DNA of 64,000 nucleotides, taken from contig CAJINV010000006.1 of the NCBI GenBank assembly GCA_905178155.1, positions 3,475,573 to 3,539,572 on the forward strand, in the 5' to 3' direction. Below are positions 17,545 through 54,689 of this stretch, one piece after another. The position numbers and the translations under genes are program-made. Numbering within the stretch: position 1 is the first letter of the stretch; each line of letters starts with the position of its first letter. Source of the DNA: Amoebophrya sp. A120. Taxonomy: Eukaryota > Protista > Dinoflagellata. The notes below the pieces were generated by a model, which made no database searches, was not told the origin of the DNA, and saw only the letters and a program-made list of their open reading frames with translations.

Positions 17545-18674
17545 CTTGTTTCGTCGATTCTTGACGTGGTCGTGTATTCGATGTTGAGAAAAAAAACTTA
17601 AGCAGTCTGTTGGGATGGTACAATACGGTAGATGAAAATGTAAACTTAGAACCTTTGTTCTGCAATCTGATTCTTCAAGCTGGTAGGAAACACGCCGGGT
17701 CTACTGAAATTTAAGTAGAATTTCATCCGCACCAGGAGGGAATGAAACGTCGGACCATGCTACTAGGACTTCAAGTTCATCTTCATGTCGATATATTCCT
17801 ACTTATACTTTGTCGCTGCTTCATCTAGTAATAGTGGTGCCACTACATGCAATACGCGTCGTTCATCGAACGTCTCCCCGTCCTGCTCTGTCACGAAAGT
17901 AGATTCAAGTGCATTTCTTGCGTTGAAGAAAAAACACAGAAGCTGTGGTAGATCTTCGCAAGACTTCAGCTTTTTGACGCGAGGCAGACCAATGTCGCTT
18001 TCGCTTCAACATAAATAGCTGCGACAGGTACTTACGCCACAAAATCGCGCTGGAACATCGATAATCAGGGCCAGAAATTCTAGACTTCGTTGCTGTCAGT
18101 GTCATCGTGCAGTAGAAAACTTCGCTGTCAGCAGCACGAGAAGCCGCTTCTTGATTTTTCTGCTGTGTCTTCATTTTTCCTACGTGTTACTAAGCGGAAG
18201 TTTCTAGGAATGAGGAAAATTCGAAAAATTTCAATCCCCAGATGAAAGTAGGCAGGTGGAGATATCAGGTCGCGGCCCCGTGCCGGCCCATTTGCGAATA
18301 CCGCTGCGCAAGAAGAGCTCGAAGAGCCCCGCGGACAACTGCGGTAGCCGAGCCTGGAGAGTCATCCGCGGCTCGCATATAATGGCCTGTATCGCGGCTG
18401 CATCAAAAAGACAACGCATGGCTCTCCGAACGGTGGCGCCTCCACACACGCGCATCATTCTCAAAGCTATTAAGCCAAAACCTCAGGCGCCATGGACCTT
18501 CCTACCCATGGACGCCATGCGCTACAAATAAACACTCTATAGCGGGGCAGGTGTACCCCCTTACCGAACCGCGCCAAACATCCCACGCCGTCGACAGCTT
18601 CCCACCGTGAATCAACCTGCCGCGTCTTTGCTCCTAACGCCTTCAACTTGCGGGCATTTCGCGCCGGACTCGAA

Positions 18675-19012
18675 ATTTTCCTCGGAAATTGAATCGCGGT
18701 GCTATGGTGGTGGTTTTGGCCTCGCTTCGGGCGTGTTTTGCTGCCGCGCTCGCTACCCAAAAAAGGGAGCCCGGGAAAGCCAGCAAAACAGACCAGGCCC
18801 CAGACTCGCCTCGAAACAAGGCAAAAAACGGCGCCATACCGTCGCGATTCAATTTCCGAGGAAAACTCAGAGCCCCCTCTTCGCCATTTTCCTCGGAAAT
18901 TGAATCACGACGGCACGGGGGCGATTTTGGCCCCCTTCAGAGGGGGCCCTCCGGAGGCCCAATCCGGCCCCCCCGCGACCCCCCCTTCGGCATTTTCCTC
19001 GGAAATTGAATC
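18675..19012. repeat. Four copies of TTTTCCTCGGAAATTGAATC (one inverted)
   Basis: Copies at ~18675, 18846 (inverted), 18886, 18992. Confidence 0.85.
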
Positions 19013-20552
19013 ACGAGCGGAAAGCGCAGAGCGCTATTTGAAGCATGGAAGAAATAGCAAAAAAATCAACGCGGGGCTGAGCCCTCGGGCGCGACCTTTG
19101 TTGGGGCACCCCGCCAAAACCCGGCCGCCGCACTTGAGGGCGCCGGGGTAGTCCTCCGCCTTTCTTTTCAAATGTTTCCGCACCTCCTCAAGACGGCTAG
19201 GCCACGCGTCCGACCCCACTGGCCCCTTTCAGGGCTGCCGCGTTAGGTTGGGATCCCCACTAGGGGATTGCCGGGGGGCTGGTGTTCGGTAGAATAGGCC
19301 CAGAGACCTCAAAGACCTGCCACCTTAGCGCGCTGCTCTGACTGCGATGCACATGTAGAGATCGCTGCCGTTATTCAGATGAAGCGCGGCTTTGTGGGTG
19401 TGTGTTGAGCCTCCGGCGATGGCTGGTTGGCTATCGAGGTGAGTGGCACCCGAAAAGCCGCCAGCCTGCTTTGGTGATTTCACTGCGCGGCAATGCGTCT
19501 GAACTCTGACGCAGTCGCTTCCCCTTTCCATTTTCGAATACAACAAACAAATGCTGGCGCGCCACGCCAGCCAAACACAGCTACGAAAAGCTGCTACAGT
19601 CGGAAGAGAATTCGAAGGGGGGGCAATTTATTCAAAATTTCCTCATTCCTAGAAAGTTCCACTTAGTACGTGTGGTGCCACATTTACAGCGTATTGCATT
19701 CAACATTCTGAACATTTCAATTCGTCCAATGCCCCTGCTAAACTTCTCCATGGTCGTTTGTTCTTTGACAAAGATTACACTGGAGACGACTGTTTCTGTT
19801 CTTGGCATCTTGTATAATTTGTACATTCTTTCATCTGCCGTGGCGGCGATGAAACCACGCAGCTTGTTCAAAGTTTAAACAAAATCTACCGCACGACTAC
19901 AGTGCACTTCTTCTTTTGTGGCTTAACGACATGACAGCGGAGCGAAAGGAAGTCCCACCCCGTCTCCGTCAACATATTGAAAACAAAACAGCTTCTATTC
20001 CTTTCTAAACTCTTGCTCTCGTTTGAGAGATCATGATCATCTAAAGCCATAGTTGGAAAAAAAATCGGCAACTTTTCGTTTCTCGATGAAGACCGTGATA
20101 GTGATAGAAGTAGAAGTCTTCAACCTATTGCATTAGCCTATTCCCGAAGTTTATTTTCCTCATTCTCGTATCTGTTGCTTAATAATGTGTCTGCTGTACT
20201 CTAAGATGAATTTCACTTAAATATTTTTTGAAACCACTCGATCGCATTACCTCCAGCAGGACTTCTTGGTGAAAGAGACGTAAAATTGAACAAGGGCGCG
20301 GCAGTAGCAAGCTCGCTGTCATAATGGTGAACGTAACTTTATTTCTGCAATTCCTAATTGGAAAAATTCCTCCTGTCCGCCAACAAGTACTTCCAGTGGG
20401 CCTATTGGATCGTTCGCTAATTACTGAAAAACAAAATCTGGACAGCTGCACTCATGATGGTAAAACCTGTATCCCCCTCTTGCCTCCTGCAGCCTCCATT
20501 GACGTGCCAAAATTGTTTTTATCTAGAAGTCCTCCTTGCTCAAAAATCCATC

Positions 20553-23832: not shown

Positions 23833-25900
23833 AGTTTTTTGCAACAGACTAGGGATTGTCGTGAAAGAATAAAGTTGTTTTTTATCGATGGCAGTTAGAA
23901 GTTTAATATTTTCAGTTGAGCCAACACAAAAGAATGAAGGCAGCGCGAGGCGGCGTAGCCAATGAGTGTTAGCTTTCGGTCGCAGTAGAGTTGCGCAGGT
24001 TGGGTGGCCGCGTTTGGACAAGGTCCAGGTATGTTCGGTCGCTCGTTGCAAACCGGCGCGCGGTAGAGCCACGTGGCTGCGGCTCTCCAGCTACCAGCAC
24101 AACCTTGCAAGCAATAGGAAAATCGGATGATGAATGCATCAAGAACATACTCTCTCTTCATTGGCTCTCATGCGTCTGCCACAGTTTTGAACAAGCTGCT
24201 TTGATTACATCTCGGCTTTCCCTTTCATCTCAACTCCCTCTCAGAAACACTCGCACAACCTGAGTCACACTGCACAAGAGAACTCGTGGGCCACTGCAAG
24301 GAAGCCCTCGCCCGATTACGGGTCACGGTTTGGGGGCGCCTCCAAGGATAACGCTGAAACAAAATAAAAATGATTGCAGCGGCGCAGGCAGCAAATGGCC
24401 ATAGGTAGTCAACGAATATAACCCTGGCCGCACGAGCAGGCAGGGTAGCTGGCAATGGTAAGCCAAACGCGCGCCACTCCGCCATACGCGCTAGAGTTGC
24501 AAACCAGCGCGAAGAAAGAAGCTGGCGCGCCACACGCTGGCGGGCTCCGGGGCTTCGCTGCCGGAGCCTGCCCCCTCAGATTGATCGGCCACGCCCCCGG
24601 CAACACACGCTGAGAACCGCGCGCGCCGGCCCCCCTCCGTCCGGGCAGGTGGTATGCCGGGCCCCGGCCGCTCGCAGGTGCCGTCTCGGCGGGCCGGCCG
24701 GGCATGATGGCGGGGCTTGTTGGGCCCCCTCGACTCGCCGACAGAAGTAGAGAAATGCGGAGAGGCGCCGGGCGGCGCCTGCCTGGTAGGCGGAGCGAGC
24801 CTCCGCCTGGAACTCACACTGGAGGGGGCGCCGAGCTCTAACGGGCTTGCACTGGGTGGCGTGCTAAACTGATATACTGGGTAGCTTGAAACTGCGTGGC
24901 AACTTGGTGGAAAGCACGAGGAGGCACTGGCACGCTGCGGCCCTTTGGCTGTCCGCCCAATCTCTCTCTGCGCGCGCGCGACGGCCCTGCTGGAAAGTCG
25001 GGCCGGAGTCGATCAGGTGTCGATGGCGTGCGCGCCCGCGAGGTCAGGTCGGCCCATTTGGCGGCCCTCGCGACTTCTCTCCGCCAGCTATCGACCTCGC
25101 CGCGGCCGTCGGCGGGTATGGCGAAAAACCAGTCCCAACGGCCGCCGGGAGGACGGACGCAACACCCGCCCGCCGGAACGGACTTGGTGCCGCGCGCGAG
25201 TCATTATAACCATCGCCATTCTATTAAGTCGGCTACATTCCGTTCGTGTTTCGCAAGCGTCTCTCTCCTCTCTGCCAGGCAGCAATATTCATATAATTAA
25301 TAAATGAATGAATTTATGTTGCTGCTGCAGGCGGTGCTGGTGATCCACATCCAGCTGCAGCCCTGCATGGTCTCACTTCCGCTCGCGCTCGTTCTCTAGA
25401 ATAAAAAATGCTTCGCCGCGCCACTGTTTACACATCAGTTTGTCCATTTTCTGCTCATTCAACAGGGTCTGTAGTACAGACCCTGTGGTTCTCACGGACA
25501 GACTCTGTAAGGAGGAGCATCTACATCAACGAGAACACGACCACACTGCTCCGTCGTCGAGATAGTCATCATGTCTGACACGTAGTTTCGCCAACAAGAA
25601 GATTGCCTTAAAAGCAAAATCATCAATGGTGCTACATTTTGGCGGAAGTAGTCGAAACAGAAACTTGAAACCACACGTGTCTTTTTTTGTGTTCTTAACA
25701 ACGTCATGGTCATTCTCATTTCCTGCTCCTGCTGTTCTCGGAACATAATGAGTCTTGCTCTACTCTTGCCCGTCACTGAGGACAGCGTAGAGCCAAAAAC
25801 AAAATCTATTACACTGGCCACTACGCTTGATTTTATTTTTCCTCACAATCAGCTAGGAGTTTCAATCCCCTCCAAAACTCGTCCCAGGAAAAAATTTTCG

Positions 25901-27516: not shown

Positions 27517-29694
27517 TTTCTTGCTTGCACGATGGAAGATAAAGATAAACGCCGTTGAGAAAGAACCTGGTCCACCTTTGTTCTGTCCTTCGCCTTCGAC
27601 AGCAACAACTACGGATGTCAATACTGAGGAAACATTTCTAACATGATCGTGTTCTGACAGCTACAATAGTACGCAGGCAGAAAGCAATCTCATTTCACAT
27701 CATGATGCGCAAGAATTCTCATCCTCCTCTCGATCTCGCATCGCAACTCCCCGAGAGCTACTATTCGCGCCGAGCATGCGATTAAAGTTGTCAACGACAT
27801 CTCTTCTCGTCATCTCTCTCTACTACTACCTCAACTTTTTCGCAACCGGTTCTGCTTCTATCAATGTACGAAATGCATGGAACAATGCCGGGGCAACGCA
27901 CTGCGCAGCCAGAACCGTTCTGAGAAGAGCGGGCCATTGGTGATCTTCCACGAGAAAATAATCTCGCCCACAACAATCACTCTACTAATGCTCCCACAAC
28001 GAGGGAGTCGAATCGCCCAAGCAAAGCGTGCGAGCCGGGCTACTTGGCTGCCTCGCAATCACTGAGAGAGAGTTTGGCGCCACCCTCCCAGGGTAGCCAG
28101 GCTGGCCAGCTGCGGCCAAAAACAAATATACCAAAGAATGGCCGGGACACCGCCCACAAACCAAGACCGCAGGCCCCGAAGGCGAAGCGAGGCAGGACGT
28201 CGCGCCGGCGGGGCGCCTCCCCCCCTCTGCCTGCCGCCTTACTTCGGCGAAACACACCGCCCCGCCGGCCCCCACTATCGCGCCCGGCCGCAGGCAAACG
28301 CGGAGGCGCCCGGGGGTCTGCGCCGACCGGGCGCTAGCCCCGCCCCGAGACAGACAACGGCGACGCCGCCACCCAGGCAGGCGGCCGCGCCAAGCCAAGC
28401 GGCGCGCGAAAGGCGCCGCCCTGCTTGGGCAAACATCACGCGCACCACACGCGCGGGCCACTCACATCAACGAACCGGGCGCGCGCGCGTCCAAGAGTGT
28501 ACTCATCGCCGGACGTGCCTCGCTGTACGGCCTCGGGGCACAGGGCGACTCTTCTTCGGGTCAACCTCCCGGCCCTCGCTCCTCCCACCCTCAAGGCAGG
28601 GCGGCGCTGCCTATCTTTTAAAGCGCCGGGCGGCCCCTGCGTGCGCGCCACGCAAGGGGGCGCCCCTCGCAAAAGGGGGGGGGGCGAGGGCCATCCCCCG
28701 AAGCCCCGCGCCCCCACGACGCGAAACACGGCGCGCGACCGACCCCCGTGCCCCCTTGGTCCTTCTAGACTGGGCGCACCCCGAAGGGCCGCGCGCCCCT
28801 CCCAAGTCCGTCGCGCAACAATGCGTCCGGCCCCGCCCTTTCGACGGACGCGGCGAACGGGGGCGACGGGGCGGCCACCCATCCCCAACAAGTCAGCGCC
28901 TGCCGCGTGTGGGCTATGAAACGGCCGAACGAAACACAGCGCGGGGCGCCCCACCCCGTGCCAGTTGTCGCCCACCGTGCCAGGTGTCGGCGGGCAATCT
29001 TCTGCAACTTGCTTGCGCCTCTTTCGCTTGAAAATGGCAGGCACCACAATGGGGGGCCTTCAGCCGGTTCGTTGGACCGGGCGCGCGGCGGGGGCGATCA
29101 GAGCCAGGCCCGGACGTGGCGCATGTGGATCCCGGAGAGCATGCGGGCCCGGACTAGTTCTCGCCGCCTTGTTTCCCTGCGCTGCGAGTACGCCCATAAA
29201 CGGGCGGACTACTTTCAGCTTTTCCGCCGACAAAAGTCGCACAAAAAGCGCCCCGGTCTCTTGTTTCAGCTGAACAACGAGAACCATTCGACCACAACAA
29301 AACGGCCTCCCCCTCATCGCTTCTCCTTCTTGTTTCTCTCCCCGAACACAATAAGAGGAGCCAGGACTTCGACTAGAAGTTTGTCCTGATTTCTTAACAA
29401 AAGACACGGCGGCTGCCCATCTGTACGCATTAGTACCTTTGCAGCCGAGTGTTAGTGCGTGCTCTTTGACTTCTACGACCACACAAAGAACAATTCGAAC
29501 TTGGAGCTGCGGTGTCACAAGCGCAATCAATCTCACTTTAGCGTCTTCTTGTTCGACATCGCGGGCGGTGAATAGGAATACTAGCTCGCTGTGCGTCACG
29601 ACGAGTAATTGCTTGCTACTCGCACGACGTCAACATGCAACACCAACATTAGAGAAAATAATATGAAATCTTTCTCACATCATCAACCACATCC

Positions 29695-40258: not shown

Positions 40259-43200
40259 TTACCCTGTGGTCGGCCACACATCCACTACTGAAGCGGAAGA
40301 ACGTCGCAGGGTCAATTTTTTCAGGGACATAGATGAGTTCTCCTTTGTCATTTGTTCTCCCCTCGCAGAGGAGGTTGCGGAAGACGCCGAGCTGCTGGTT
40401 GAGTAGATCAACGGTTTGTCGAAAATATTTTCATCCCTGCTGTGATCGCCAGAACTCCTTGCCCGCTTCAGTTTGTCATGCGATAAATTCGCGTTCGACA
40501 GTAGCATTTCTTCTGACGGCAAGTCGTTCGAGGAAGACGTGTGCTGCGAGTCCGCTAGGGAGTTGCTGCTGGTTTCCTTCTGCATTGAGGGGATTTGGAT
40601 AATTTGCTTGATGTTCGTCCTCTCGTCATGCATGGAAACGCCAGACCTATCGTCTACTATTCTTGTCGAAGTAGCTCCATGCTTATCTCTCCAACCGGGG
40701 AGATCGTCTAGATGAAACGTTGGCTATGCATTGCACAAGCATCGTACTAGTAGAAATCGCATTTACAAATTCGGCCAGCATGACAAATGGAATTTGTCAT
40801 GCTGTTTTGCCTTGAAAAAGAGATTTGTAGTGCATAAATGCAATGACTACGAGTACGATACTTTTTCACAGGATATTGTCTCATAGTCGTTCTCCGCAGC
40901 TGAAGATCTCAACAGCTCTTCTCGTAATAGCTCGTCGGAAGAGGATTTCAAATCGAAATCGCGCCGCGGTTCTTGTCTTGCTTGTTTTTTGTTGCCATAG
41001 TCGAGGACTGGTGAAGGACTGTTGACCCCTCCAAGATCACTTACCACCTGCTTCACATGGTCAACGCAAGAGCTTATCGGGATCACGTTTATCCTGTGCA
41101 AAAGTATCGTAGTCGTACTAATTGCAGTCAAGCATTACAATTTCTTTTCTTCAGGTAAATCCGCATGACAGATTGTATTTCTCATGCTGAGGAAATTTGT
41201 AATGCATTTAATATACGAGTACGATACTCTTGCAATGCATAACGTTGTCTCCTGTGCAAGAAGACCCGGCGCTCATCTGCTCTGCCGCTACTCTCGACGC
41301 CAGCGTGTTTTCTGTCGATCCTAATTTACCGAGCAGGATCGGCATAGAAGAAGTAGTAGTGCTGTTGTTCTGGCTGCTCGGCTCTCCTTCTACAACATGA
41401 CTGGAAGACGACAGTGGGGCACTGGATAAAACCGGCTCATTAATCGACGTGGCGTAATTATCCGTCACGACCGGCATTATGGTCGGCAGCTCCAGCCTGA
41501 AGGGCGTTGGCGTCACGTCTCTACTCCCTGACAGCTGCGTCATCGCACCACCGGGTGGTGGCGTCATTTCCGGGGAGGGTGGTCCGGACGTGTCGGCGCT
41601 GTCCTCATTCATCCCTCTCGTACTGAAACCACCACCACCGTCCCTCATACTCACATCCGGTCTGGGACTAACTGGCGGGCTTGGTGGCGGCCGTTTCAAA
41701 ACGTATTTGTAAAAAGCGGGGACGTATGCAGTGCAGAAGTATCGTACTCGTACGAATCATCTCAATCATGCAAGACAAATCGCCTGACCAAGCTAAATCA
41801 GCATGGCAAATTGCATTTGTCATGCTGCGCTAATTTGTATTGCGATAATTCCTAGTATAGTACTAGTACGGTACTTGTTTTGCAATGCATAATATGATCA
41901 GCCAGTCGACGAATTTCTTCAGTCCGGAAAACTCGTAAAACATCAAGAAGTATTCACTAACCCACCGCCACCAACCTAAACTCCGGCCGGAAACCGGTAT
42001 CCCCCAAATAATCTTCGACTGCATGATGTCAAACACCGTCGCTAAAATTGCCGTTGTGTCCAAGTTCGCGAGTAGCGGGTAGATCGTGCCGTGAAGGAAG
42101 AACAGTAGGGAGATTATCGGGTCGAAGAAGAAGTTTTTCACCGGCCGCACGAAATTCATCAACGAGTTCCACCAGGTATGACTGTGCACAACTCCCCGCC
42201 CCCCTCATTTCTCATGCAAAATCCACAATTACAGTTGCTCCCTTGCGTCACTATTATGCATGACAAATTTCGAGAGCCCAAACAATCAACTACAGTAGGT
42301 ACACAAATTTGTCATGCACAGGCTCCACCAGGGTCGCTGGCGTTTGTATTGCTATTCGCGCAATACAAACGAGGGGGAGGGGGGTTGTGCACTGTCATAC
42401 CTGGCTCTCAAATACGTGAGAAATTCGTCTATTGGAATCACGAAGATCCAGATTAAATGAAGCGTGTTTGCAAAAGAAAACGCCTAATTGGCGGGCGATT
42501 CGAACTTTTCCAAAACTTTTCGTTTGACTTTTCAGGATTTCAGGGTATTGAAAACGATTTGATAAAGCGAGTCAGAACGAAAAAACGCAACGAAGATACT
42601 CCAAGTAGCGACAGAACAGGGGCGCCTGCGAGGTCTTGGGCGCCGACGCCTCCTCTTGTCCCGCGGGTGATCGGCGAAGCCCGAGCGACCGCCTTTCAAC
42701 CCGCCGAAGCGTGCGCGCGCCGGGCACCCGCCGACCGCACCCAGCCAACGGCTGCCGGCGCGGGCGCCCTAAAGAAAAAGGCCATGACCGCCCATCGCAC
42801 CCACCCGCCCCCCCCCAGGCCCGGAAGGCCTACCCGGGAACGGACTAGGAGGAGGGCTACCGACACAGGGAAGGGGGCCGGTCCGCCAGACCCTAAACCC
42901 GACGCAACCGGGCACCGGGCAGCACGCGCCCTCGCCAAAAAACGCGCGCGCCCAAGCCTCACAAACACCGCGAACCACGGCGCTCCCCCGCGCCTCCCGC
43001 CGCCGGCGGGCCGCCACCGCGAAACGGCCCGACCCTGGCAGCTTTCTTAATGCAAAGCAACCACCGGCCAAAAGCTGCCGGCGGTGCGTGCTGCTGTTTC
43101 GCGCTTTTCCACATGAGGAAGATCAAAGCGCGCCAGCCTGTTGGGCTTTGTTTGACTTCAACGAACCGCCGGCGCCGGGTTCTATCGGTCGCCGGCTGAT

Positions 43201-46200
43201 AATACTCTCGACACAGGAGGGCCGACAAAGAAAAGGGGCACCCCGCTGAGGCGCCGGCCGCGTGGGGTTCTGGCGATTTGGGGCGCGCAAAAGAGCGCCC
43301 CAAAAAACTCGCGGCAAATCAGAAAAGCGAAGCCACACGACAGGGCCGGGGCTCCGTTCGGAGCATTTGGCCGGCCGCGAAAGCGGCCGCCACCTTTTCG
43401 CCGGTTTCTATGTGGCGGAAGCTTTGCAAAGGGTGCCGGCGCGCAAAGAAAAAACACAGAAAAGCAAAAGCGCGCGAGGCCAATCCCCATGCCATGGGAC
43501 CGGCTTGCCTTCGGTTTCAGGGCGCTCCACCGCGGCGCCCGGATCGGCCCCATACCGCCAGGGGTAGCTTTCGGACAGGGGTTCTGAAAATTTGGCAAAG
43601 AAGTGCCATGCTTTCCAAAAGACGGCCAAGCCACACGGCATGGCCATACCAAAAGCGGCACGGGGGGGCCCAGAAAAAGGACGCAGTGGCTGGCCAGGGC
43701 AACGGTCGGCGGGCAAGGCAGCCAGCGGCACCGACCTCACCACCTCCGCCACGGAGGCTATATTTGGCACGCTGGGCACACGCAGCAGCGGCTTACCGTC
43801 CGACAGCCCCACACGTAGCAAGCAAACAGGCCCCGAGGGTAACTAAGCTCCCACGACGCCCCCTCCGCTACGTCGCACGCAGGGGCGCAGTTCCGCCCGT
43901 GCACCAACCACATCGCCCGGCGCCCCAACATGACTCGCCCCGCCCGAAACGGTGTCGAGCGTGCCATGCGGTCCGACGTCGGACCGCGCGGTATGCTTGT
44001 CGGAAAAGCAAAACAGCAAAGGCACAGGCGCCCTGGCTGACCAGATAGAGACGAAACGGATCGCCCAATCCCGGCCCACAGGGTGGGGCGCAGGGCGAGC
44101 GAAGGGCGAGACGAGCGATGGGTGGCAATCGGGCCGCCGGCACGTAGGAAGTAGACCCGCGGCGGCGCCGCCCGGTATTCCAGGCGCGCAGGCAGGCCGG
44201 CGGGGCCCAACATGCAGGCGCCCCCCCATATCAGAGGGTGGGAGGCCCCCAGGCAGGCCGGCTCCGGCCGGCTGGCGCCTGGCGGATGCGGCGGAATCGC
44301 TTCGGCACCCCAATAACACGCCTCCCCCGCCCGGGCTCGGCAGTGCGCCGGCGCCACGCCCGCGCGGCTGTTGCCGGCCGGCACATTGTGGCCCCGGTCT
44401 AGGTCGGTCGCGGGCGGGGGGGCGAAGGAATGGCGCGGCCGGGCCGGGTGTTCCTTCCGTCTATGGGTTTGGGCAAACCGACGCCAACTCCAGCGGCGCC
44501 CGGGCCCCCGAGAGCCCGCCGGCCGCCGCAAGTGTGGAGCACGCGGAGCGCATGCCCCGAACGCGCCCCGAACGGCGCAACGCGCCAAGTTCAGGGGGTC
44601 GGTAGCAAACGCCGAAGCCCGGGCGCCCTCTCTTGGTTCGCAGCAAGCTACACGCGCACCGGCGCCCCCGGGGCGTGAATCCGCTGCCCGGTGGCGCATG
44701 CGACAACGTAGCGCCGCCCGCCCGCCGGGGCGGGGCCGGCCGCTTGCCTGGCTACGCCCGTGCGCAATAACCGCAGGCGTGCCTGCCGGGGGGCTGTGCC
44801 TGCCTCTTTTCGGGCGCAAGGCAGCCGCCCGAGGGCGGCCCGGCTGGCGGGCAGGAACAAAGGGCAGGCGCCGGGCGGCGAAGCTTTTCCGCCCCTCTAC
44901 CGAAAACTCTGCCGGATACTTTGCCGAGAACTTGCCGAAAACTTTCCCCCGAACTTTCCCGAAAAGTCGGCGAAAACCTTCCGCGAAACCTTCCCGAAAA
45001 ATTCTCCCGTTTAAAAGTCGACCAAAAGTTACAGACCGGGAGTTGAAAAGTCATCCAAAAGTTTTCGAGTCCAAAAATGATCCCGAAGCGGGAAAGTTCG
45101 GGGGAAAGTTTTCGGCAAGTTTTCGGCAGGCTTTCGGCACTCAGGCAGAAGATTTCGTCGCGCCCTCAAAAGCCGAAAAGCCGGAAGGCTTGCACATCCG
45201 CCAGGCTTGCGAAGAATCCCGCTGCCCCCCCCCTTTTCTACATGGCTGAGGCGGTCTCCCCGAAAATGGGGACAGAGCCTCCTGGGCGAACTTATTGCGC
45301 GCGCCGGCGCGGCAACATGTGAGTGGCGCCCCGCGCGCGCCCCTGCTGCGCCGGCGCCCTTTCTACTCGCGAAAAGCCGGCCGCGCAAGGCCGCCGCGAC
45401 CGAGGCGGAGCACTCTGGAGCGGCGGCATGGTCTCGCCGCTTTGTATGTATGTAAGTGCGGGGGGCCGGCGAATATGAAAGAGAAAGGGGCAGGCCGGAC
45501 GGCCTCTAGCTAACGCCCAAAGAAGGGCGCCACGCAAAAACGTGAGGCGCGGGCAGCTCCACCGAAGCGCGCCACGCCATGCGGCCCGAACGTGCGAGGC
45601 CGGGCCGCGCGGCGTGCTGCGCGCCTACTTCAATGCGCCAAATATTGCCGCCGGGGCGGAGATAATGAGGCCGGCGCCGCTTCTTTGCCCGCCGACCTTG
45701 GCCCACGCCACTTTTTTGTTTTTTCTGGGCCCGCCGTGCCGGGGTGGGTAAGGTTATGCCGCACGGTATGGCGGCCGGTTGGGGAAAATGGCAGACATTG
45801 GGCAACTTGCCAAAACGCCTTCCCGAAAGCCAACCCCGATGCTATCGGGCCGACCCGGGCACCGCGGGGGGCGCCCAAAAACCGAAGGAAAAGCGGGCCC
45901 ATAGAATGCGGGCTGGCTTCGCGCGCTTGGCGCGTTTCTTCTTTTTTGCGTTGTTTATTATTTTTCGCGCCCGCGCCTTTTGCAAAGCTAGCGCCCCCCC
46001 GCTGAGAACCCGGCAAAAGGGCGGCCGCTTTCGATTCGCGACCGGTTTCGCGGCCCTGCCATACGGCTTCGCTGTTCTGGCTTCGGGCGGGTTTTTTGGG
46101 GCGCCCTTTTGGGCGCCCCAAGTCGCGCGCCAGAATCGCACGCGGCCGGCGCCTGAGAAGGGTGCCACGTTTGCCGACCCCCCTACGTCATTTTTTCAGA

Positions 46201-49200
46201 CAGTCTTTCCCCCGGCGGCCGACTGAGCCCACCGGCGACTGCATTCATTGAAGTAAGACAAAACCAAATAGGCGGGCGCGCTTGGGTTTTTTTCATCTTC
46301 AACATGCGAAAAAACGCGAGCCAACGCCCCAAGCCCCCGGCCGTTTTTGGCGGTTCTTGTCGGGAAAGCTGCAGAGATACAGCCGGCCCACGGGGTCGCT
46401 GCGGTACATCCTACAAGAGAAGGCAAACCACCCAGGCACGCAGGCTCGTGCTGGAGGGCAACATACCAGAGGGGCCACGGGGCCCCCGCCCGCCGGCTCG
46501 CTTGTGGGGCGGGCCACCCGGGGGAGTTGCGTTATCCATTTCCTGAACCAAAGAACACCCCACCGGGGAAGCCCACCCAACCGGGGGAGGTCGGCCCCAC
46601 ATCGCGACGCGATGCCGCACGCACGGACGGCCTGGCGCGTGAGGCTGGCCCACCATCGCGCACCATACCATGCGGTCCGACGTCGGACCGCATGGTATGC
46701 TGCCTCTTTGCTTCTCTCGTTCAAGCAGGCGAAGCAGAATAGACGGGCAACCGAAAAAGACAGGTGGCGCCACCACAGCGCGCCACAGACCCATATCACG
46801 CGCCGGCCATCGGGGTGGCCCCCCGTCCGCAGGCCCTTGACACTTCTGCCACCGCTAGCGAGACGAGCGGAGGAACCGCCTCTGCCCGTTGGTTGCAAAA
46901 GGGGGGCGCCTTTGGCGCGCGCTTCGGTCGCGTCGCGTAACCGCGGAAAGGCGGGCAGGAAACAGACTGCCGGGGCGCGACAGCCTCTATTTTGTAAGAA
47001 TGGGCAAGCGGCGGGCCAGAATGTAGGGGGCTGAAGGTACGTAGGACAGGCAGCGCGCGGCCGGCGTGCCATCCAAGACACCGCGGCGGGGCGGCGCGCC
47101 CATTCGGTTTCGGGCCCTGGCAGTGGCAGCCAGTGCCATTGCTTATTTAAAAGGCGCTCAGGGCGAAGAGGGCCGACGCGCCCCGGCATTTCCGAAGCGC
47201 GAGGCGGCGATCAACATCCGGGCGAATACTGAAAGGCCAAAGGCCAGCGCCCTCGCACCACTTCAAAAGGTGCACAAAATGCGCACAGGGCCCCACAGCG
47301 CTCGCGAATAATCGCGAACAACCGACCACGGAGGCGCTGCCCGTCCGATGCGCGGCGGGTGGCATTTCCCGCAGCCTGCTTGGAGGCGTCGATCAAAATG
47401 GGAGGCAGCTGGCGGGCACACGCCGCGGCGAAGAGGTGCCGCCCTTTCATGCTCTGCCACTCCCAAAGTGCGGACTTACCAGCAACAGGCAGCACGGTCC
47501 AAACAATTTTCGCAAAGCATGGATTGCCGACGATCAAAATAGCGATTTTGCCAAAAGTCAAAGTAAAAGTTTTGGAAAAGTCGCTATCCCTTTCCAATTA
47601 GGCGTTTTCCTTTGTAACGTGTAGGATAACGTCGCGAAGACGAAGTTCGTCAAGTACAACACCGTGTCGCGGATAAACCCGGGGGTGTAATACAACGCAA
47701 TCGCCGCTGTGTTGTCCCCGAACCACTGTTCCGCTTTGTAACTCGCGTACGAATCGCATTTTCGTAAGAAATATGGATTGCAAATATGTGGTCTGTTTCT
47801 GAGCGAGTACAAACTTGTGCTGCGCACTTGAGGACACAGAAAAATCTCTCATGCATAGGTAGCAAAAGATGCCCACTTTCTGTCACCAAAATTAAATGGG
47901 AGATTTGTCCTGCGGATTCGGCATCATTGCGAAAGCTTCCTGAAACCTGTGATGCTAGAGCTCCCATGCCAGACCTTCTGGGTCATGCAAAAACAGCATG
48001 ACTCTTCCAGACCCAGACACTTTTGCACTTCATAAGAAAATCATGATGGGGTCGGTTTCCAGGCGGCCGAAAAATTGCACCTTGTGGATGACGAACTGGT
48101 AGAAGTGGTATCCTGTGCAAAAGTATCGTACTCGTAGTAATTGCATTCATGCATTACAAGTTTTTTTCTCAAGGGAAATCCGCATGAAAGATTTCATTTC
48201 TCATGCTGGGGAAATTTGTAATGGATGCATTTATACGATTACGAGTACGATACTTTTGCACAGCATAAGTGGTGCACCGCGGCGATTAGGAAGCAACAGG
48301 GAAGCAAAATGTCCAACACCCAGATGATCCACCGTCGGATGTTCTTGCTGTTGTACACCCGGGAGGGAAGCAGAGCGGACAAAACGTACTCTACGTAGTA
48401 CCCGCCAACGTAGATTTTTTCGTCTAAATGCTTCAACTTCCGCTTCATCCGACTTAGCTCATTCAGCTCGGAGGAGTCAAATGCTTTGCAAAAGTATCGC
48501 ACTCGTAGCAATTGCATTTATGCATTACAAATTTCTTTCTCAAGGTAGATCAGCATGACAAATTTAATTTGTAGTGCTGGGCTAATTTGTAATGCAATTT
48601 ATACTTAGTGCGATGCTTTTGCAATGCATAAGTCAAACGTGAAGACGATCGGCTCTTGCGGTCTCGGAAAAAGAACCTTTATAACCCGCTCAGGTGTTAC
48701 AATCTCAAACGTTGCAATAGAATATGGAAATCTGTGATGCAAGAGTGCATGATCTAGCCAACTCTCATAGGATCGCGCATGACAAATTCTGGAGTCCCAA
48801 TCCGCACTACAATCTGGCGAAATTTGTATTGCAGAAAGTGGAATGCTGTCCGAGTCTGTCATGTTCATCATGCAAGACAGATCTCAGATTCTATTGTAAC
48901 GCTTGAGATTGTAACGTTTGAGCAGGTCATAACCTTCCCGAGGACTTTTTTGTTCAGAAACGGGTACCAGAAAAGAGTTTTGAGATTCATCTCCAGAAAT
49001 CTTGTACACCTACTGAAGATATCAAATGCAAAAATGTCTGGGTCTGGAAGAATGCAAGCTTTGTGATGCAGGTTTTCCATTACCCATGAGGCCTGGAATG
49101 CGAGACCCAGCATGACATATTTTTTGAGGTCTCTATCATGCCTTTCCTGCATGAGAAACTCCCTCTCAACTTGGGCAAAAGCGGACAGCTTTAGGCACTC

Positions 49201-52200
49201 ACGCAACACAGATTTCTGCATCGTTCAGATTTAGCACGACAAGTTCTAACCTTCCAGACCCAGACACTTTTACATTTGATAGAAGAACACGATCACGTTG
49301 TGGGCCTGCTTCTGGAACAGCTGCTTCCTCTATCACAAGAAAAAGTTTTTAAGATTAACGGTTTTCTTCACCGATTGCAGTGATGCATCACAAATGTAGC
49401 CCAATATGCATGCTATGCATGACAAATTTTGGCACGTTATTTAGTGATGCATTGCTTTTGCTGCATCACAAATTCCGTTAACGTTAAACACTTTTTCCTG
49501 TGATATTCTCTCGAAGGCGCGCTGGGAGAGGTTGTGAAACTCTTCAATCGCGCCGGAAGCGGAGGAGATGGTGGAAGTGGAGAGGATGGAAACGTGGATG
49601 GAGGAGTTGTTGCTGTTTAAACTGCTGTTCGTGTGGTGGAGGTTTTTATTCGTGGTTCCAAAGTGAATGTGCTTCTTCGGGACCACGACAGGCACAGGCT
49701 GCTCGTCCTTGCTCAACATCTCTGGCGCAGGAGTAGGAGTACCTGGCACTGCCTTCCGCTCTCGCAAAGTTGTACCTGAAAAAGTGGATGTCGTGGCGGC
49801 GGCTTCGTCGCTCGTCACATCAACTACCTCTGCAGATGTTGTTGATGAGACCACTGGCATCAACATCCCTGGTTCATTCGGATTCGCGTTGATGATTTGT
49901 ATTCTGGGGAGAGAATTGCCGCTGGGAACAAGAGAACTGGTCAAGAGGTCGGAGGTTGAGGTGGCGGAGGAGTCGAGGACGACGCTGTCATTCTCTGTAG
50001 TCATAGTTCCACCCCCGTTGGACATGATCAAAGTTGATCCACCACCGAGCGACCTGTCGATCTCTCGCTGGAGCTCCGAGGGAAGATCATCTAGAGGTGG
50101 TGCATCCTCTACTACTTCTTTCGCATCTTCATTCATCGCAGCATCAGAGATGACAGCACCACCACCAGCAGTATGAACTGCAAAAGTATCGTACTAGTAG
50201 TAATGGCAATACAAGTTCGCTCAGCATGACAAATGGAATTTGTCATGTTGATTTGCCTTGGGAACGAGATCGTTAATGCATGACTTCAATTACTACGAGT
50301 ACGACACTTTTGCACAGGATAAGCAGTGCCGCTCTTGGGCGAAGGCGGAACGGCTGCGGTCATCTATCAAATGCAAAAATGTCTGGGTCTGGAAGAATGC
50401 AAGTTTGTCATGCTTGTCTGGCATGACTCGAGAATCTGTGTTGCATAGGCACGACGAAAAGGCCCTCTTACCTGTCATGCCAAAACGCAGTTTGCCATGC
50501 GGAATTATACGTAAGACATGGGAGCCACAAAATTTGTCATGCGTAGCTGCGTACTGTGGTGCGTCTAGTACCATTCACTTTTAGCATTACAAGTTTCCAG
50601 ACCCAGACATATTTGCAATCCATATCATCCTTGGTAGTGCCATGGTGGTTCGTCTCATTAGCTCGTCGTCGTCTACTATCGCAAGAAAAAACTGTTTCAC
50701 TGTGAACTTGTGATGCATAGAATTGAACACAGCACTATTTGTCTTGCTACAGCTGCAAGGCGTTGGATTTTTCAGCGTGTTTTCCCTTGGAAGGCGCGCA
50801 TGGCAAATTTTCTGTGTCATGTGTAGCAAATTTGTGCTGCGGATCTTGCAAAACCATCACAGTGCAGCAGTTTTTTCGTGGAATATCTACTTCCTCGTCG
50901 CCATTCCCTTCGTGGTCTAGAGAAGCCGACGAGCTGGTGCCATTTGTTCCTAATGTAGAGCTACTAGAAGAGCAGGTTGTCCCTTGATTCTGCAACTGCT
51001 GCGCCTGGGAGAACCGCACATCGTACTCTGAAACGAGCTTCCGCATGGTGATTCTAAAATTGCTGTACTCCTCTTCGTAGTATTTCATGAAGCTCACTTC
51101 CGCGTTGATGTACGCAATCAGCATCATCCACCCGAAGATCACCGTGCGGGAAAGGAAATTCCAGACCCAGAGGTTTCGATAAGCGAAGAGGATAAAGCTG
51201 AAATTCCGCCAGTACGCGATATGCATTGCAAAAGTAACTTACTAGTATAAATTGCATTACAACTTTTGGCAAGAAGAAAAGTGAAATTTGTAATGCTGTT
51301 TTACCTTAGGAGGAAGGTTTGCCATGCAGATTTGCAATTACTACGAGTACGATACTTTTGCGCAGCATACGCGAAGGATAACAGCGAGAAGTTCGTCGGG
51401 TTGATCTGGGAGGATCCCGTTCCGGATTTCTATCGTAAGGAAAAACCCCCCCTCCCCATATCAAAACGAAGTTTCTGACTCTGGATTTCCGTACAAAAAT
51501 CGGCGCTGTCTTGCAGTACAGGATTGGAGGCAGATGCCGCGCCTGAGTGCAGAGCTTCTGACGTGGACGCTTAACATCACAAACGTCTATGCAGTAGCCC
51601 AAGCAGCATCACAAACCGTCCGCATAATGCGGCGGACACTGTAGAGATAGAGTTGCCTTCTTGCATAGACAAATATGATTTGTGACCTCAAATCAGCAAC
51701 ACAGATTTTCGGTGACATACCTTTTCAATATGAGGAGGGGGGATTTTTCCTTTCAATAATTTCTCCGCCGCAGCTAACGCAGAATTCGCCCAGAGATTCA
51801 TGACGCCGATGATCAAGCACCATATGGTCGTGATCTCCGCGTACAGAGAAACCCAGATGTTCCACTGATTCCTTTTCGTCCCATCGGGAGAGGCTGAAAA
51901 GAGGTGTAAAATACACCCGATGGTGATCAGCATGCTTGTCAGCGGCCCGAACCAGCAGTAGCTCGCGATGAAGATCAAAATGAGGGAAAACGTATGCATT
52001 GCAAAAGCATCGCACTCGTATAAATGCATTGCAAATTTCCTTAGCATGAGAAATAAAATTTGTAATGCTGATTTACCTTAAGAAAACGATTTGTAATGCA
52101 TGATCGCAATACGAATACGATACTTTTGCACAGGATAAAACAAGTGGTAGACCCACGCGAACCAGTTTAACCCACGGTATTCGTCGATCTCCTGTATGAT

Positions 52201-53492
52201 CGTGATTTTTGCGTTCAAGGGGATGCCCTTCTCCGCCTGGATCGCGATGTTCATTCCTAAAGCGGTTTTCCGCTGCATGCGGCTGATTCGGAGATGGTTG
52301 TACTGAGCTTGCTGGGACGACCGAGCAGCTGCTCCTGGTGCGATAACAACTCCAGGAACACCACCACGCGTGGGAGAATTGTTTGGACGATTTGATGCTT
52401 GTCGGGAATCAGATTGCACACTCAAGTTCGACTGCACAGACGTCGTCGACATCGTGCTGTCTTGGGTTTGGAGTATCCTCTGCTTACTGTTCGTCCTCGT
52501 CGTGCTAGTAGACCCGAAGTTTGTCATGCTACTCCCGATGCTACTTGTGGTTCCAGCATTGTTCAGGTTGATCATCCTGCTACCGGAACTACCTGTGATC
52601 ATCCCCGTGCTGGAAGAGGAGCCACCGCCACCACCTATTATCCCCTTGCTTTTCGCCAGGAAAAGCGGGGATTTGTTGCCACTGCTACTTGCACCAGCTC
52701 CAGCTCGAGCGGGACTACCCGGATCCACGTAGCCCCTCTCATTCAGCATCGCCGTCGCGGTGCGTTTCTTCAGATTTTGGTGATGCTGCTGCTGCTGCTG
52801 CGCGGGGCTTTTGCTCGGGGAACTTGGAGTAGCTTGTTGCGCCGAAAAATTGCAGCTCATCTCGGATGAAAATTGCACCGCGGACAAGGCGGTGTTCGGG
52901 TGGTGATGGTGTAATACTGCCTCGCCTCTTGGGGAAACGACTCCTTGTTGTAGAAGTCCTCCGCCTCGTGCCAAGGCTGTAGATGACCCCGGCACGACCG
53001 CACCCCGATTGCTGTACTTATTTTCCTGTATCGCCTCTTTCGTTTCCTTCGTGCCTGTCCTACTCCCTGCCGCGCTGGACGAGGCTGATGGTCCGGAGTT
53101 GCTTTCGTTTGGTTCACCGTGCTGTTCTATCAAATGCAAAGTGTCTGGGTCATCTGGAAGAATGCGCGACTTGTCATGCAGCTTTTCCATGACCCATGAG
53201 GTCTGGAATGCAGGACCTAGCATGACAGATTCTGCGCGATCTCTCTCATGCCTATCCTGCATGAGAAACTCCCTCCCGACTTGGTCAAATCTGGACGACT
53301 TTTGGTAATCATGCAGCACAGATTTTTGCATGCTTCGGATTTAGCATGACAAGTTGCATTCTTCCAGACCCAGACATTTTTGCATTTGATATGTTCGAAA
53401 TTTCGGTTGTCATGATTCTCGTCCTCTTCCGTCTGATCGGTCAAAGCGCTCTCCTTGCTGGAGGTCAGGCTCTTGTCGTGGTCGTCGAACAT
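40259..53492 (-). CDS. Large hypothetical multi-pass membrane protein
   Basis: Frame continuous at the junctions I joined across 17 introners and the 5.15-kb element 42468-47617; several hydrophobic segments; first stop TAA 40259-40261, with same-frame ORF continuing to 39758. Confidence 0.7.
40725..40875. mobile_element. Introner family B
   Basis: DR TTGGC/TTGTC. Confidence 0.9.
41090..41241. mobile_element. Introner family B
   Basis: DR ACGTT. Confidence 0.9.
41725..41891. mobile_element. Introner family B
   Basis: DR degenerate GGACG/ATATG; frame restored. Confidence 0.8.
42177..42399. mobile_element. Introner family J
   Basis: DR CCAGG/CCTGG. Confidence 0.9.
43040..46372. repeat. Diverged ~750-bp inverted repeat (arms ~43040-43790 and ~45610-46372) inside the 5.15-kb element
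   Basis: Colinear blocks such as GGCGCCGGCCGCGTG, GCGCCCCAAAAAAC, AGCTTTGCAAA and ATATTTGGC in opposite orientation. Confidence 0.8.
44922..45128. repeat. 40-bp-arm inverted repeat (MITE-like)
   Basis: TGCCGAGAACTTGCCGAAAACTTTCCCCCGAACTTTCCCG vs reverse complement of 45089-45128, 1 mismatch. Confidence 0.85.
46664..46699. repeat. Perfect 36-bp palindrome; 20-bp core copy at 43968-43987
   Basis: CATACCATGCGGTCCGAC|GTCGGACCGCATGGTATG. Confidence 0.9.
47772..48034. mobile_element. Introner family C, diverged
   Basis: DR AGAAA. Confidence 0.9.
48109..48267. mobile_element. Introner family B
   Basis: DR AGTGG. Confidence 0.9.
48480..48630. mobile_element. Introner family B
   Basis: DR AGTCA. 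Confidence 0.9.
48680..48931. mobile_element. Introner family H
   Basis: DR ACCTT; close copy of 34974-35228. Confidence 0.9.
49020..49281. mobile_element. Introner family C
   Basis: DR GAAGA. Confidence 0.9.
49331..49505. mobile_element. Introner family M
   Basis: DR TCCTC/TTCTC. Confidence 0.9.
50172..50321. mobile_element. Introner family B
   Basis: DR AGCAG. Confidence 0.9.
50365..50624. mobile_element. Introner family C
   Basis: DR TCATC. Confidence 0.9.
50677..50885. mobile_element. Introner family L-like
   Basis: DR TCTAC. Confidence 0.9.
51220..51369. mobile_element. Introner family B
   Basis: DR CGCGA. Confidence 0.9.
51431..51758. mobile_element. Introner family F
   Basis: DR ATTTC. 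Confidence 0.9.
51993..52137. mobile_element. Introner family B
   Basis: DR AAACG/AAACA. Confidence 0.9.
53128..53391. mobile_element. Introner family C
   Basis: DR TGTTC. Confidence 0.9.
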
Positions 53493-54689
53493 GATAGGCG
53501 TTTAAAAATAGTTTGGCTAATATTAAAATTCTGTACAAGGCGAAGTAGCTGTAGCTTCCTTTAGCCGACTATCAAAAAGTCTGTCTTCCCGGAGGAGCAA
53601 GAACGTCAATCGACATAGTTATAGGTCTCGTGTGCAGGTAGAAGAATCGATGTAATATACTCACATCACAAGAACCCGCCCAACAGCACCAAATGCATGA
53701 CGAGCGTCATGCTTCATGATGTCGTAGTCTGCGATTGTAAACAAAGACTGAATATAGTGCTTGCGTGAAAATAAGAAAGGATTCGTCTGGGTAGAATCTG
53801 CCGTGGCTCAAGAAAACAAGCGTTATTTGACATAGCGATAACTTTTGTTCGGCACCAGCAGGGGTTTTCAAAAATTATAGATATAGTTATACTCAAAATT
53901 TTCAGATCGTCATTTTCCCGTTGGTTGCGCGGTCAAAATATTGGGAGTACTACTTAATTTCAGACCCAGCTCGTCCAGCAGCAGCAGCACTGGCACTGCT
54001 AGTCCGTGCTATCTCATGATCCACAGTAGACCTTCAAAAAGTAAGAGCCACACACTCGATCGCGGGAGGCCTGTTGCCAACAAGAACCTCACGTCAACAC
54101 ATCTGACAGAAATAAAACGAGTCAAGCAAAACTTTAGCAGACAGGGTACTATGAGAGAATGAAGCGAGTAGAACGGAGAAAAACTTGTTTGAATACACGA
54201 CAAGCAAACTGGATTTGTTCACCGGGACTCATGGGGCAAACATCATGGGTCAAAAATTTCAATGGGGTCCTGTTGGAATGACAAAGTCGTCCCAGGAGGT
54301 TGTTCTTCTTGTTGTATTTACAGTGATAATTTTCTTTGACATTCATCAGAAACAAAGCTCCAGATTGTAGTTTCGCGCGAAGTCTGTGTGGCGGTATCCT
54401 CCATCTCGTGTCGCGGTCACCCGCTGAAGATAAAAACAGGTTGCAGTTCAAGAACCGATAATCTAGGTTTACGTTTTTGAAACAAAAAAGCCGACATTGT
54501 CTTCGTTCACTTGTTTCCACCGAGAAGTAAAGAAAACAACCGATTAGGTCGATATTATATTTTTCAAACCTATATATTCTCAAACACGACCGAAACTTCA
54601 TCTTCAAATAGTAGGACCACTAGTACACTAGGAGTCGGCACCAGCAAAACAAAACTGAATTTCGTCGGATGTCTAAATATTTATACTCG

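What the first reader, a model, noticed from the sequence alone, without database searches (positions are those of the whole stretch)
42468..47617. A 5.15-kb TIR element inside a coding sequence behaving like a giant introner; candidate relic of an autonomous element
Seen: ~60-bp imperfect TIRs and a perfect 5-bp DR (CGTGT) bracket the whole GC-rich island. Deleting 42468-47622 fuses ...FATLSYT to LHLIWIFVIPIDEFLTYLRA in frame, and the flanking exons show no decay although the element interior looks old. It shares the 5-bp register of the small introners but is about 15-45 times longer, ends TT(G/A)...TAA rather than TAT...ATA, and I see no core-motif array in it. Inference: the removal system may need only paired ends plus the DR and tolerate kilobases of cargo; such long copies are where a mobilising transposase would be expected.
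Basis: partly seen in the sequence, partly recalled or inferred. Interest (0 to 1): 0.85.

Follow-up and report, generated by a model that had tools for sequence, protein, structure and literature searches.

The report
Five-kilobase transposon spliced out cleanly
A 5-kb mobile element with no recognisable gene sits inside a protein-coding gene of what is likely the marine parasite Amoebophrya, and contigs from two likely RNA runs lack it exactly, so this cell's unusual splicing likely reads only the paired ends of an insert, not its size or content.

Summary
A 5,150-bp element (65-bp TIRs, 53/65 complementary; CGTGT on both sides) interrupts a minus-strand reading frame of about 1,510 codons. 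Contigs of two likely-RNA runs join 42462 to 47618, skipping 5,155 nt; two DNA runs do not. One contig also lacks 16 small introners, each by element + 5 nt. Retention would stop translation after 19 codons.

The 'old relic of an autonomous element' reading is not supported. None of 77 interior ORFs matches a transposase. The interior is a low-copy family: contig depth is about 3-6 times single copy, contigs differ by 0.7-2.8%, and TIR relatives have other flanks. The old look comes from a built-in 800-bp inverted repeat about 68% alike.

A neighbouring introner with a 2/5 repeat is still cut exactly, so repeat identity is not needed. The likely cut is 1 nt before and 4 nt after the TIR stem. 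This is a giant non-autonomous variant of Amoebophrya introners (listed TIR families reach about 1.6 kb). Still open: RNA and DNA come from different samples, there are no raw junction reads, and catalyst and transposase are unknown.

The parts
42468..47617 (.). 5,150-bp TIR element, GC-rich, no recognisable coding sequence, low-copy family
42463..42467 (+). left 5-bp direct repeat CGTGT (target-site duplication, inferred)
47618..47622 (+). right 5-bp direct repeat CGTGT
42468..42532 (+). left TIR, 65 nt (3' arm on the transcript)
   Evidence: the ends co-fold at -71 kcal/mol
47553..47617 (-). right TIR, 65 nt, starts TTACAA as the relatives do (5' arm on the transcript)
   Evidence: loose ends
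42464..47618 (-). intron of 5,155 nt; length shown, exact register inferred from neighbours (would read GT...AC); none of the six possible registers gives GT-AG, GC-AG or AT-AC
43012..43816 (+). arm A of inner inverted repeat (about 800 bp, 68% alike to arm B, many indels)
45590..46398 (-). arm B of inner inverted repeat; its core has the highest summed depth in X1 (964 at 45640-45819), so it is likely shared with further elements
44900..45139 (.). central palindrome (40-nt arms, 98%) built of 11-12-nt subrepeats; same axis as the outer TIRs
46660..46703 (.). 44-nt perfect-type palindrome, with a second copy at 43958-43997
47619..47767 (-). host exon upstream of the element
42401..42463 (-). 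host exon downstream of the element (63 nt)
40262..53501 (-). host gene: open frame of about 1,510 aa after removal of 18 elements; predicted membrane protein (5 hydrophobic windows) with low-complexity stretches; no family found; the junction is at about residue 1016
41725..41891 (-). small introner with decayed DR (2/5) that fixes the cut register: 41721-41892 removed

Best explanation
This is a non-coding, low-copy TIR element, likely a non-autonomous DNA transposon moved by a transposase encoded elsewhere, that sits in a coding exon and is missing by exactly element + 5 nt from contigs of two likely RNA runs, most likely because the host splices it out guided by its paired ends. Shown: TIRs, 5-bp repeat, open frame after removal, stop after 19 codons if retained, the joint in RNA-type contigs and not in DNA-type contigs, relatives at 97-99% with other flanks. 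Inferred: the two 65-nt TIRs pair in the pre-mRNA and loop out 5 kb; the cuts fall 1 nt before and 4 nt after the stem, as in the small introners, so one repeat's worth of sequence leaves and the protein is restored whatever the cargo. Inferred and untested: the catalyst is the host's divergent spliceosome (U1 was not detected in PMC7789003), with the stem standing in for splice-site recognition; this register always puts the TIR's first T at intron position +2 and here gives GT...AC. I put spliceosomal catalysis at about 60% against a separate nuclease/ligase.
For:: joint 42462->47618, skip 5,155, in X4 (depth 132.5) and X5 (15.7), 63 nt on the short side, absent from X1 and X9. X4 record 9 (5,876 nt) matches removal of element + 5 nt in 9 of 9 steps covering 17 elements, with 0 other letters in the listed exon pieces; interior bins 0-27 in X4 against 132.5 on the exons; frame open across the joint, stop after 19 codons if retained. 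X1 interior contigs at depth 88-178 against 24-38 for five flanking contigs (ratio 2.9-5.8), 0.7-2.8% substitutions; a contig without the relatives' deletion at 42604 has depth 30.5, like the flanks, so the window's copy looks fixed in that DNA sample. loose ends: TIR relatives starting TTACAA with two other flanks; of 6 joints tested, one allows a single register and the other five are compatible with it; no transposase; the ends co-fold at -71 kcal/mol, against -43 to -63 for four small introners.
Against: The RNA label of X4 and X5 is the tool's guess, and both belong to one study; only contigs, no raw junction reads (X11 raw reads had no depth on the exons). RNA and DNA runs are different samples, and a spliced product reads the same as an empty allele. 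No X1 contig spans the element, X1 has no depth at 47620-47771, and at most listed interior sites X1 shows only the relatives' letter, so the window's exact interior and right junction are not independently confirmed. The register rests on one fully informative intron. No excess of G-U over A-C mismatches on the transcript strand (45 vs 34, p = 0.26), so selection for RNA pairing is not shown. One TIR relative lies in X4 contigs unspliced (42485-42585 at depth 102, and a loose end of 255+ nt). Summed contig depth is only a rough copy number. No transposase was found anywhere, and no genome was available to search.
Confidence: 0.75

Rival explanations
1. The RNA came from cells that lack the insertion (empty allele or precise excision from DNA); nothing is spliced.
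For: The joined form equals the pre-insertion site. X4 and X5 are other samples than X1. The family is young enough to be polymorphic. Contigs drop rare variants.
Against: No joint in DNA-type runs X1 and X9; the window-type contig at 42604 has single-copy depth (30.5); exon pieces of X4 and X5 have 0 differences from the window; X4 holds a 191-nt piece identical to 47400-47590 at depth 3.75, as pre-mRNA would give, though it could come from a relative or DNA. This copy differs from the majority type at many sites, so it is unlikely to be a fresh insertion.
Confidence: 0.08
2. It is the decayed relic, or an internally intact form, of the autonomous element that mobilises the small introners.
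For: Same 5-bp repeat length; size fits an autonomous element; the longest ORF (430 aa) is reached by only 5% of 200 shuffles, and stop codons are fewer than in shuffles (148 vs 190 segments).
Against: 0 of 77 ORFs match a transposase or integrase, 0 of 30 match PHROGs; 8 of 12 listed indels break frame; termini and core motifs differ from the small introners, so a shared transposase is not indicated; the interior is made of inverted repeats; relatives share it at 97-99%.
Confidence: 0.07
3. Removal is real and end-guided but not spliceosomal: a structure-specific nuclease and ligase cut and join at the stem, as suspected for euglenid nonconventional introns. This differs from the best explanation only in the catalyst.
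For: No canonical pair in any of six registers; U1 not detected in either strain (PMC7789003, section 10); euglenid TIR-bounded introns of up to several thousand nt leave as full-length circles (PMC11282704, passage).
Against: Most spliceosomal proteins and U2, U4, U6 are present (PMC7789003); the register puts a T at intron +2 throughout; tunicate non-canonical introns are described as removed by the spliceosome (PMC11282704, passage).
Confidence: 0.3
4. The joint is an artefact of reverse transcriptase switching template between the two CGTGT copies held together by the TIR stem.
For: Short direct repeats beside a stable stem are the known setting for such artefacts (recalled, no call).
Against: The interior is near-empty in the RNA-type runs while a contig joins across it; the neighbour with a 2/5 repeat is cut exactly; retention would truncate the frame by about 495 residues.
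Confidence: 0.03
5. The insertion and its removal are real, but the 5,150-bp interior in the window is partly a mosaic of relatives made by assembly.
For: At most listed interior sites X1 shows only another letter; no contig spans the element.
Against: X1 pieces tile 29 of 30 bins in order, with one 456-nt skip at low depth; X9 agrees with the window's letter at several sites where X1 differs (e.g. 43499, 43518, 44480, 44510); bubble removal in contigs would hide a single-copy variant.
Confidence: 0.12

Closest known systems
Amoebophrya introner elements (Farhat et al. 2021, PMC7789003)
   Same: [quoted passage not shown]
   Different: 5,155 nt against a mean of 240 nt for non-canonical introns of A120; 65-nt TIR against 8-20 nt; starts TTAC, neither TAT (A120) nor TTA + two purines (A25); carries an 800-bp inner inverted repeat. 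That paper's longest annotated A120 intron is 35,152 bp, type not stated.
Kilobase TIR introner families of Amoebophrya sp. A120 (Gozashti et al. 2025, PMC12130899, supplementary file 8)
   Same: TIR DNA introners well above MITE size are already listed: about 0.73, 0.81 (fam38, 5-bp TSD, TA/TA termini, weak homology to a Copia/Gypsy-type transposase), 1.2 and 1.6 kb, mostly with non-canonical sites and 4-32 copies.
   Different: In the 56 of 58 A120 rows seen, no TIR family is given at about 5.15 kb; single longer sequences (4,033-6,806 bp) appear inside fam25, fam60 and fam122 without sequence, so overlap with this element cannot be excluded. No coding homology here.
Euglenid nonconventional introns (review PMC11282704)
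   Same: TIRs pair the intron ends, TSD-like repeats at the junctions, non-canonical sites, length up to several thousand nt, likely MITE origin.
   Different: Other lineage; the CAG/CTG pairing at +4..+6 / -8..-6 is absent; release as circles was not testable here.
Integrase-type cut-and-paste transposons: Ginger2 and IS3EU/GingerRoot (PMC2836005 abstract; PMC10045372 passages)
   Same: TIRs of tens of bp and short TSDs (Ginger2 4-5 bp).
   Different: Termini TT..AA rather than TG..CA or TA..TA; IS3EU/GingerRoot TSDs are 6 bp; no transposase here, so no superfamily can be assigned.

Membership tests
Amoebophrya introner element (IE) | inverted repeats at the two ends of the intron | tested here: met
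   65-nt TIR, 53/65
Amoebophrya introner element (IE) | 3-5-nt direct repeat over the exon/intron boundaries | tested here: met
   CGTGT on both sides; the joint can slide 5 nt
Amoebophrya introner element (IE) | removed from transcripts at non-canonical sites | tested here: met
   joint in X4 and X5 contigs (RNA label guessed by the tool); no GT-AG, GC-AG or AT-AC in six registers
Amoebophrya introner element (IE) | repeated in the genome | tested here: met
   contig depth ratio 2.9-5.8, two other TIR flanks
Amoebophrya introner element (IE) | other copies of the family also form introns | not testable with these tools
   no genome held; one relative appears unspliced in X4
A120-type TAT introner families | TAT start with an A-run, core motifs, about 100-350 nt | tested here: not met
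   TT..AA ends, 0 of 6 motifs inside, 5,150 nt
autonomous DDE transposon or its relic | intact or decayed transposase/integrase frame | tested here: not met
   0 of 77 ORFs in Pfam, 0 of 30 in PHROGs; no frameshift-tolerant profile search was possible
Ginger / IS3EU / GingerRoot | TG..CA or TA..TA termini | tested here: not met
   TT..AA here and in two relatives; termini as given in PMC10045372 and PMC2836005
Ginger2 | 4-5-bp TSD | tested here: met
   5 bp; range from PMC10045372
Polinton / Polinton-like virus | 6-bp TSD, 14-40 kb, viral genes | tested here: not met
   5-bp repeat, 5.15 kb, no protein match; TSD from PMC10045372, size from the listing of PMC12220804
euglenid nonconventional intron | CAG/CTG pairing at +4..+6 and -8..-6 | tested here: not met
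   the ends printed do not show it in the inferred register
euglenid nonconventional intron | released as a full-length circle, no lariat | not testable with these tools
   needs RNase R and junction RT-PCR

The most novel reading that the evidence does not exclude
This lineage has a general transposon-healing splicing system: any insertion with paired ends and a 5-bp duplication is cut from the pre-mRNA at a fixed stagger (1 nt before, 4 nt after the stem), needing neither a family-specific end motif, nor matching direct repeats, nor a short loop, so even 5-kb foldback elements become neutral introns on arrival and keep spreading.
Probability: 0.45. Interest if true: 0.78.

Novelty: new variant of a known kind. 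Interest (0 to 1): 0.52.

Why it matters
How Amoebophrya removes tens of thousands of non-canonical introns, apparently without U1, and what moves them, are open questions (PMC7789003). This locus is a natural experiment. An element 20 times the usual size, with other termini and no shared interior motif, is removed in the same 5-nt arithmetic as 16 small introners of the same transcript. A neighbour with a decayed repeat shows that the repeat need not match. Together they narrow the signal to the terminal stem and give a concrete register and a large, easily detected excised RNA with which to test lariat against circle. It does not deliver the missing transposase, and kilobase introners in this organism are already listed, which caps the surprise.

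Tried and rejected
No whole genome is held, so no genome-wide TIR search. TIR patterns found 0 matches in viral contigs and in two scans of metagenome contigs; within the window only the two TIRs match. blastn against phages: none. Rfam: one chance match, E 0.93. No listed holder is on record as RNA. X9 covers only interior pieces, so it says nothing on an empty site. Host protein: two exon queries found no homolog (93 and 109 aa, weak searches) and four exons gave only sub-threshold Pfam matches; the wider HMMER search and the protein atlas gave no answer, so orthologs and the 430-aa ORF remain untested there. G-U against A-C bias: not significant. Likeness of the central palindrome to the TIR: reached by 4-7 of 100 shuffles, rejected as weak. 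A nested TAT-type element at 43030-46379 (4/5 repeat, one TAT-like end): only a hint. Long-read noise as the cause of the GC-rich scramble: rejected, since short-read contigs of X1 and X9 match at 96-100%. GC-ward decay of this copy: not seen among the listed variants. Enrichment of NT starts in the Gozashti table was not used as support, since aligners slide to such motifs. Five look-ups in the scan's earlier findings were empty.
Full report
Observation. The element runs from 42468 to 47617. Its ends are 65-nt inverted repeats with 53 of 65 positions complementary, and CGTGT stands on both sides. GC is mostly 0.57-0.77 per 200 nt inside, against 0.40-0.51 in the flanks. The window is full of small elements: my script found 77 TAT..ATA elements of 109-354 nt, 60 with a perfect 5-bp repeat, under criteria that favour good repeats. 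This anatomy matches the introners described for Amoebophrya strain A120 (PMC7789003, section 11), so the organism is likely Amoebophrya; that is an inference from anatomy. Six core motifs of the small elements occur 0 times inside the large one and 21-68 times outside.

Host gene. Removing the large element and 17 small ones, each with 5 extra nt, gives one minus-strand frame of 1,512 residues. The large element sits at about residue 1016, within one of five hydrophobic windows. If it is retained, a stop follows after 19 codons. No homolog was found with two exon queries, so constraint on the exons is shown only by the open frame and by identity with the transcript contigs.

Is it removed? 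Of 13 listed runs, 5 were laid. In one search (42400-47771) a joint from 42462 to 47618, skipping 5,155 nt, stands in X4 (depth 132.5) and X5 (15.7), with 63 nt on the short side, and not in X1 or X9. The tool only guesses that X4 and X5 are RNA, and they share a study. X4 record 9, however, is 5,876 nt long and its coordinates match removal of element + 5 nt in 9 of 9 steps over 17 elements, which is what a spliced transcript gives. Interior bins in X4 are 0-27 against 132.5 on the exons, and the listed interior pieces mostly differ from the window, so they likely come from relatives. Raw run X11 had no depth on the exons, so there is no read-level count. Since the joined form equals an empty site, an empty allele is the main rival. 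Against it: DNA-type runs lack the joint, a window-type contig at 42604 has depth 30.5 like five flanking contigs (24-38), and the exon pieces have 0 differences. For it: DNA and RNA are different samples, no contig spans the element, and X1 has no depth at 47620-47771.

What the interior is. It is not a transposase relic by any test I could run. All 77 stop-to-stop frames of 50 aa or more, 87% of six-frame codons, were scanned against Pfam: 23 gave nothing at E 0.1 and 54 gave three unrelated matches at E 0.1-0.17. The 30 longest gave nothing in PHROGs. The longest frame, 430 aa, is reached by 5% of 200 shuffles, and stops are somewhat fewer than in shuffles; this is borderline and may reflect the repeats. 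Instead the interior holds an inverted repeat of about 800 bp (43012-43816 / 45590-46398, 68% alike, many indels), a central palindrome on the same axis as the outer TIRs, and a 34-44-nt palindrome present twice. The diverged arms give the old look. The element itself is fairly young: eight long X1 contigs tile the interior at depth 88-178, 2.9-5.8 times the flanks, with 46 substitutions in 2,965 nt (0.7-2.8% per piece). Depth is a rough guide only. Of 12 listed indels 8 are not multiples of 3; 18 more indels and 89 substitutions were not shown. Loose ends show TIR relatives starting TTACAA with two other flanks, so the TIR is not unique and the terminus is fixed. An estuary metagenome (X9) holds interior pieces that share many letters with the X1 majority. 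At most listed sites X1 shows only the relatives' letter; bubble removal explains this, but a partly mosaic assembly is not excluded.

How removal likely works. Joints at imperfect repeats locate the cut. For 41725-41891, where only 2 of 5 repeat letters match, exactly 41721-41892 is removed; the five other joints tested allow that register among others. On the transcript the intron is 1 nt + TIR...TIR + 4 nt, and all three repeat mismatches of that introner fall in the removed part. So the repeat is a trace of insertion, not a splicing signal. In this register the large intron reads GT...AC; none of the six possible registers is canonical. The two ends co-fold at -71 kcal/mol, more than four small introners. 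I infer that the stem joins the ends and sets the cuts, whatever lies between. The register puts the TIR's first T at intron position +2; with U1 undetected and most other spliceosomal parts present (PMC7789003, section 10), a divergent spliceosome is my first choice (about 60%), a nuclease/ligase route as suspected in euglenids the second. Against selection on RNA pairing: G-U 45 against A-C 34, p = 0.26. The register rests on one fully informative intron. Movement is inferred to need a transposase in trans; a 5-bp duplication fits integrase-type enzymes (PMC10045372, passages), but TT..AA termini fit neither Ginger nor IS3EU/GingerRoot.

What is known. PMC7789003 (abstract, passages, sections 5, 10, 11, 16, 23, 25, supplement legends; figures not seen) describes these introners, 240 nt on average in A120, reports no transposase in A120, and lists a longest intron of 35,152 bp of unstated type. 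PMC12130899 (passages; supplement legends; 56 of 58 A120 rows of file 8) lists TIR introner families of about 0.7, 0.8, 1.2 and 1.6 kb and one, fam38, with weak homology to an LTR-type transposase. No family there is given at 5.15 kb, but single sequences of 4-6.8 kb appear in three rows without sequence, so the element may lie unnoticed in that dataset or in the public annotation. PMC11282704 (passages) gives euglenid TIR-bounded introns of up to several thousand nt. PMC2836005 was seen as abstract only. Roy et al. 2023 is not held and was not seen. Five paper searches showed no report of a multi-kilobase foldback element spliced from an Amoebophrya exon, nor of the 1-before/4-after register as such; subscription papers are not covered.

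Verdict. The feature is real and very likely spliced: a giant, non-coding, low-copy TIR introner, a new variant of a known kind. Interest 0.52; the general 'any paired-end insert is healed' reading has probability 0.45 and would deserve 0.78.

Noticed in passing
window 18188-19668: A second long TIR element, 1,481 bp, 44-nt TIR (TAC..GTA), with the same repeat CGTGT as the large one and internal palindromes; removal gives an ORF of about 105 aa across the site. No likeness to the large element; not tested against RNA. A family row with a 1,474-bp sequence (fam25) exists in PMC12130899 file 8; identity unknown.
   Followed up: partly
window 24300-25200 and 28050-29300: GC-rich islands (0.67-0.69) between genes with the same AA-rich, TA-poor dinucleotide pattern as the large element's interior but no blastn likeness to it and no TIR + repeat found.
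   Followed up: partly
window 41725-41891: Small introner whose direct repeat has decayed to 2/5 yet is cut at one exact place; fixes the register at 1 nt before and 4 nt after the TIR.
   Followed up: yes
window 43030-46379: The inner inverted repeat may be a nested element: right end TAT-like, flanks CGGCC/CAGCC (4/5). Depth peaks and cross-arm joints in X1 and X4 suggest a larger family sharing these arms. Weak.
   Followed up: partly
window 42485-42585: An X4 contig at depth 102 carries the inner part of the TIR with a relative's letter, and another runs on into 255+ nt of other sequence: some relative seems to stay in RNA unspliced.
   Followed up: no
window 48480-48630: Small introner whose left end has lost the TAT (reads AAT) and is still removed by element + 5 nt according to the contig arithmetic.
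   Followed up: partly
window 1-64000: Nearly all long frames recovered after removing introners lie on the minus strand, in line with co-oriented gene blocks.
   Followed up: no
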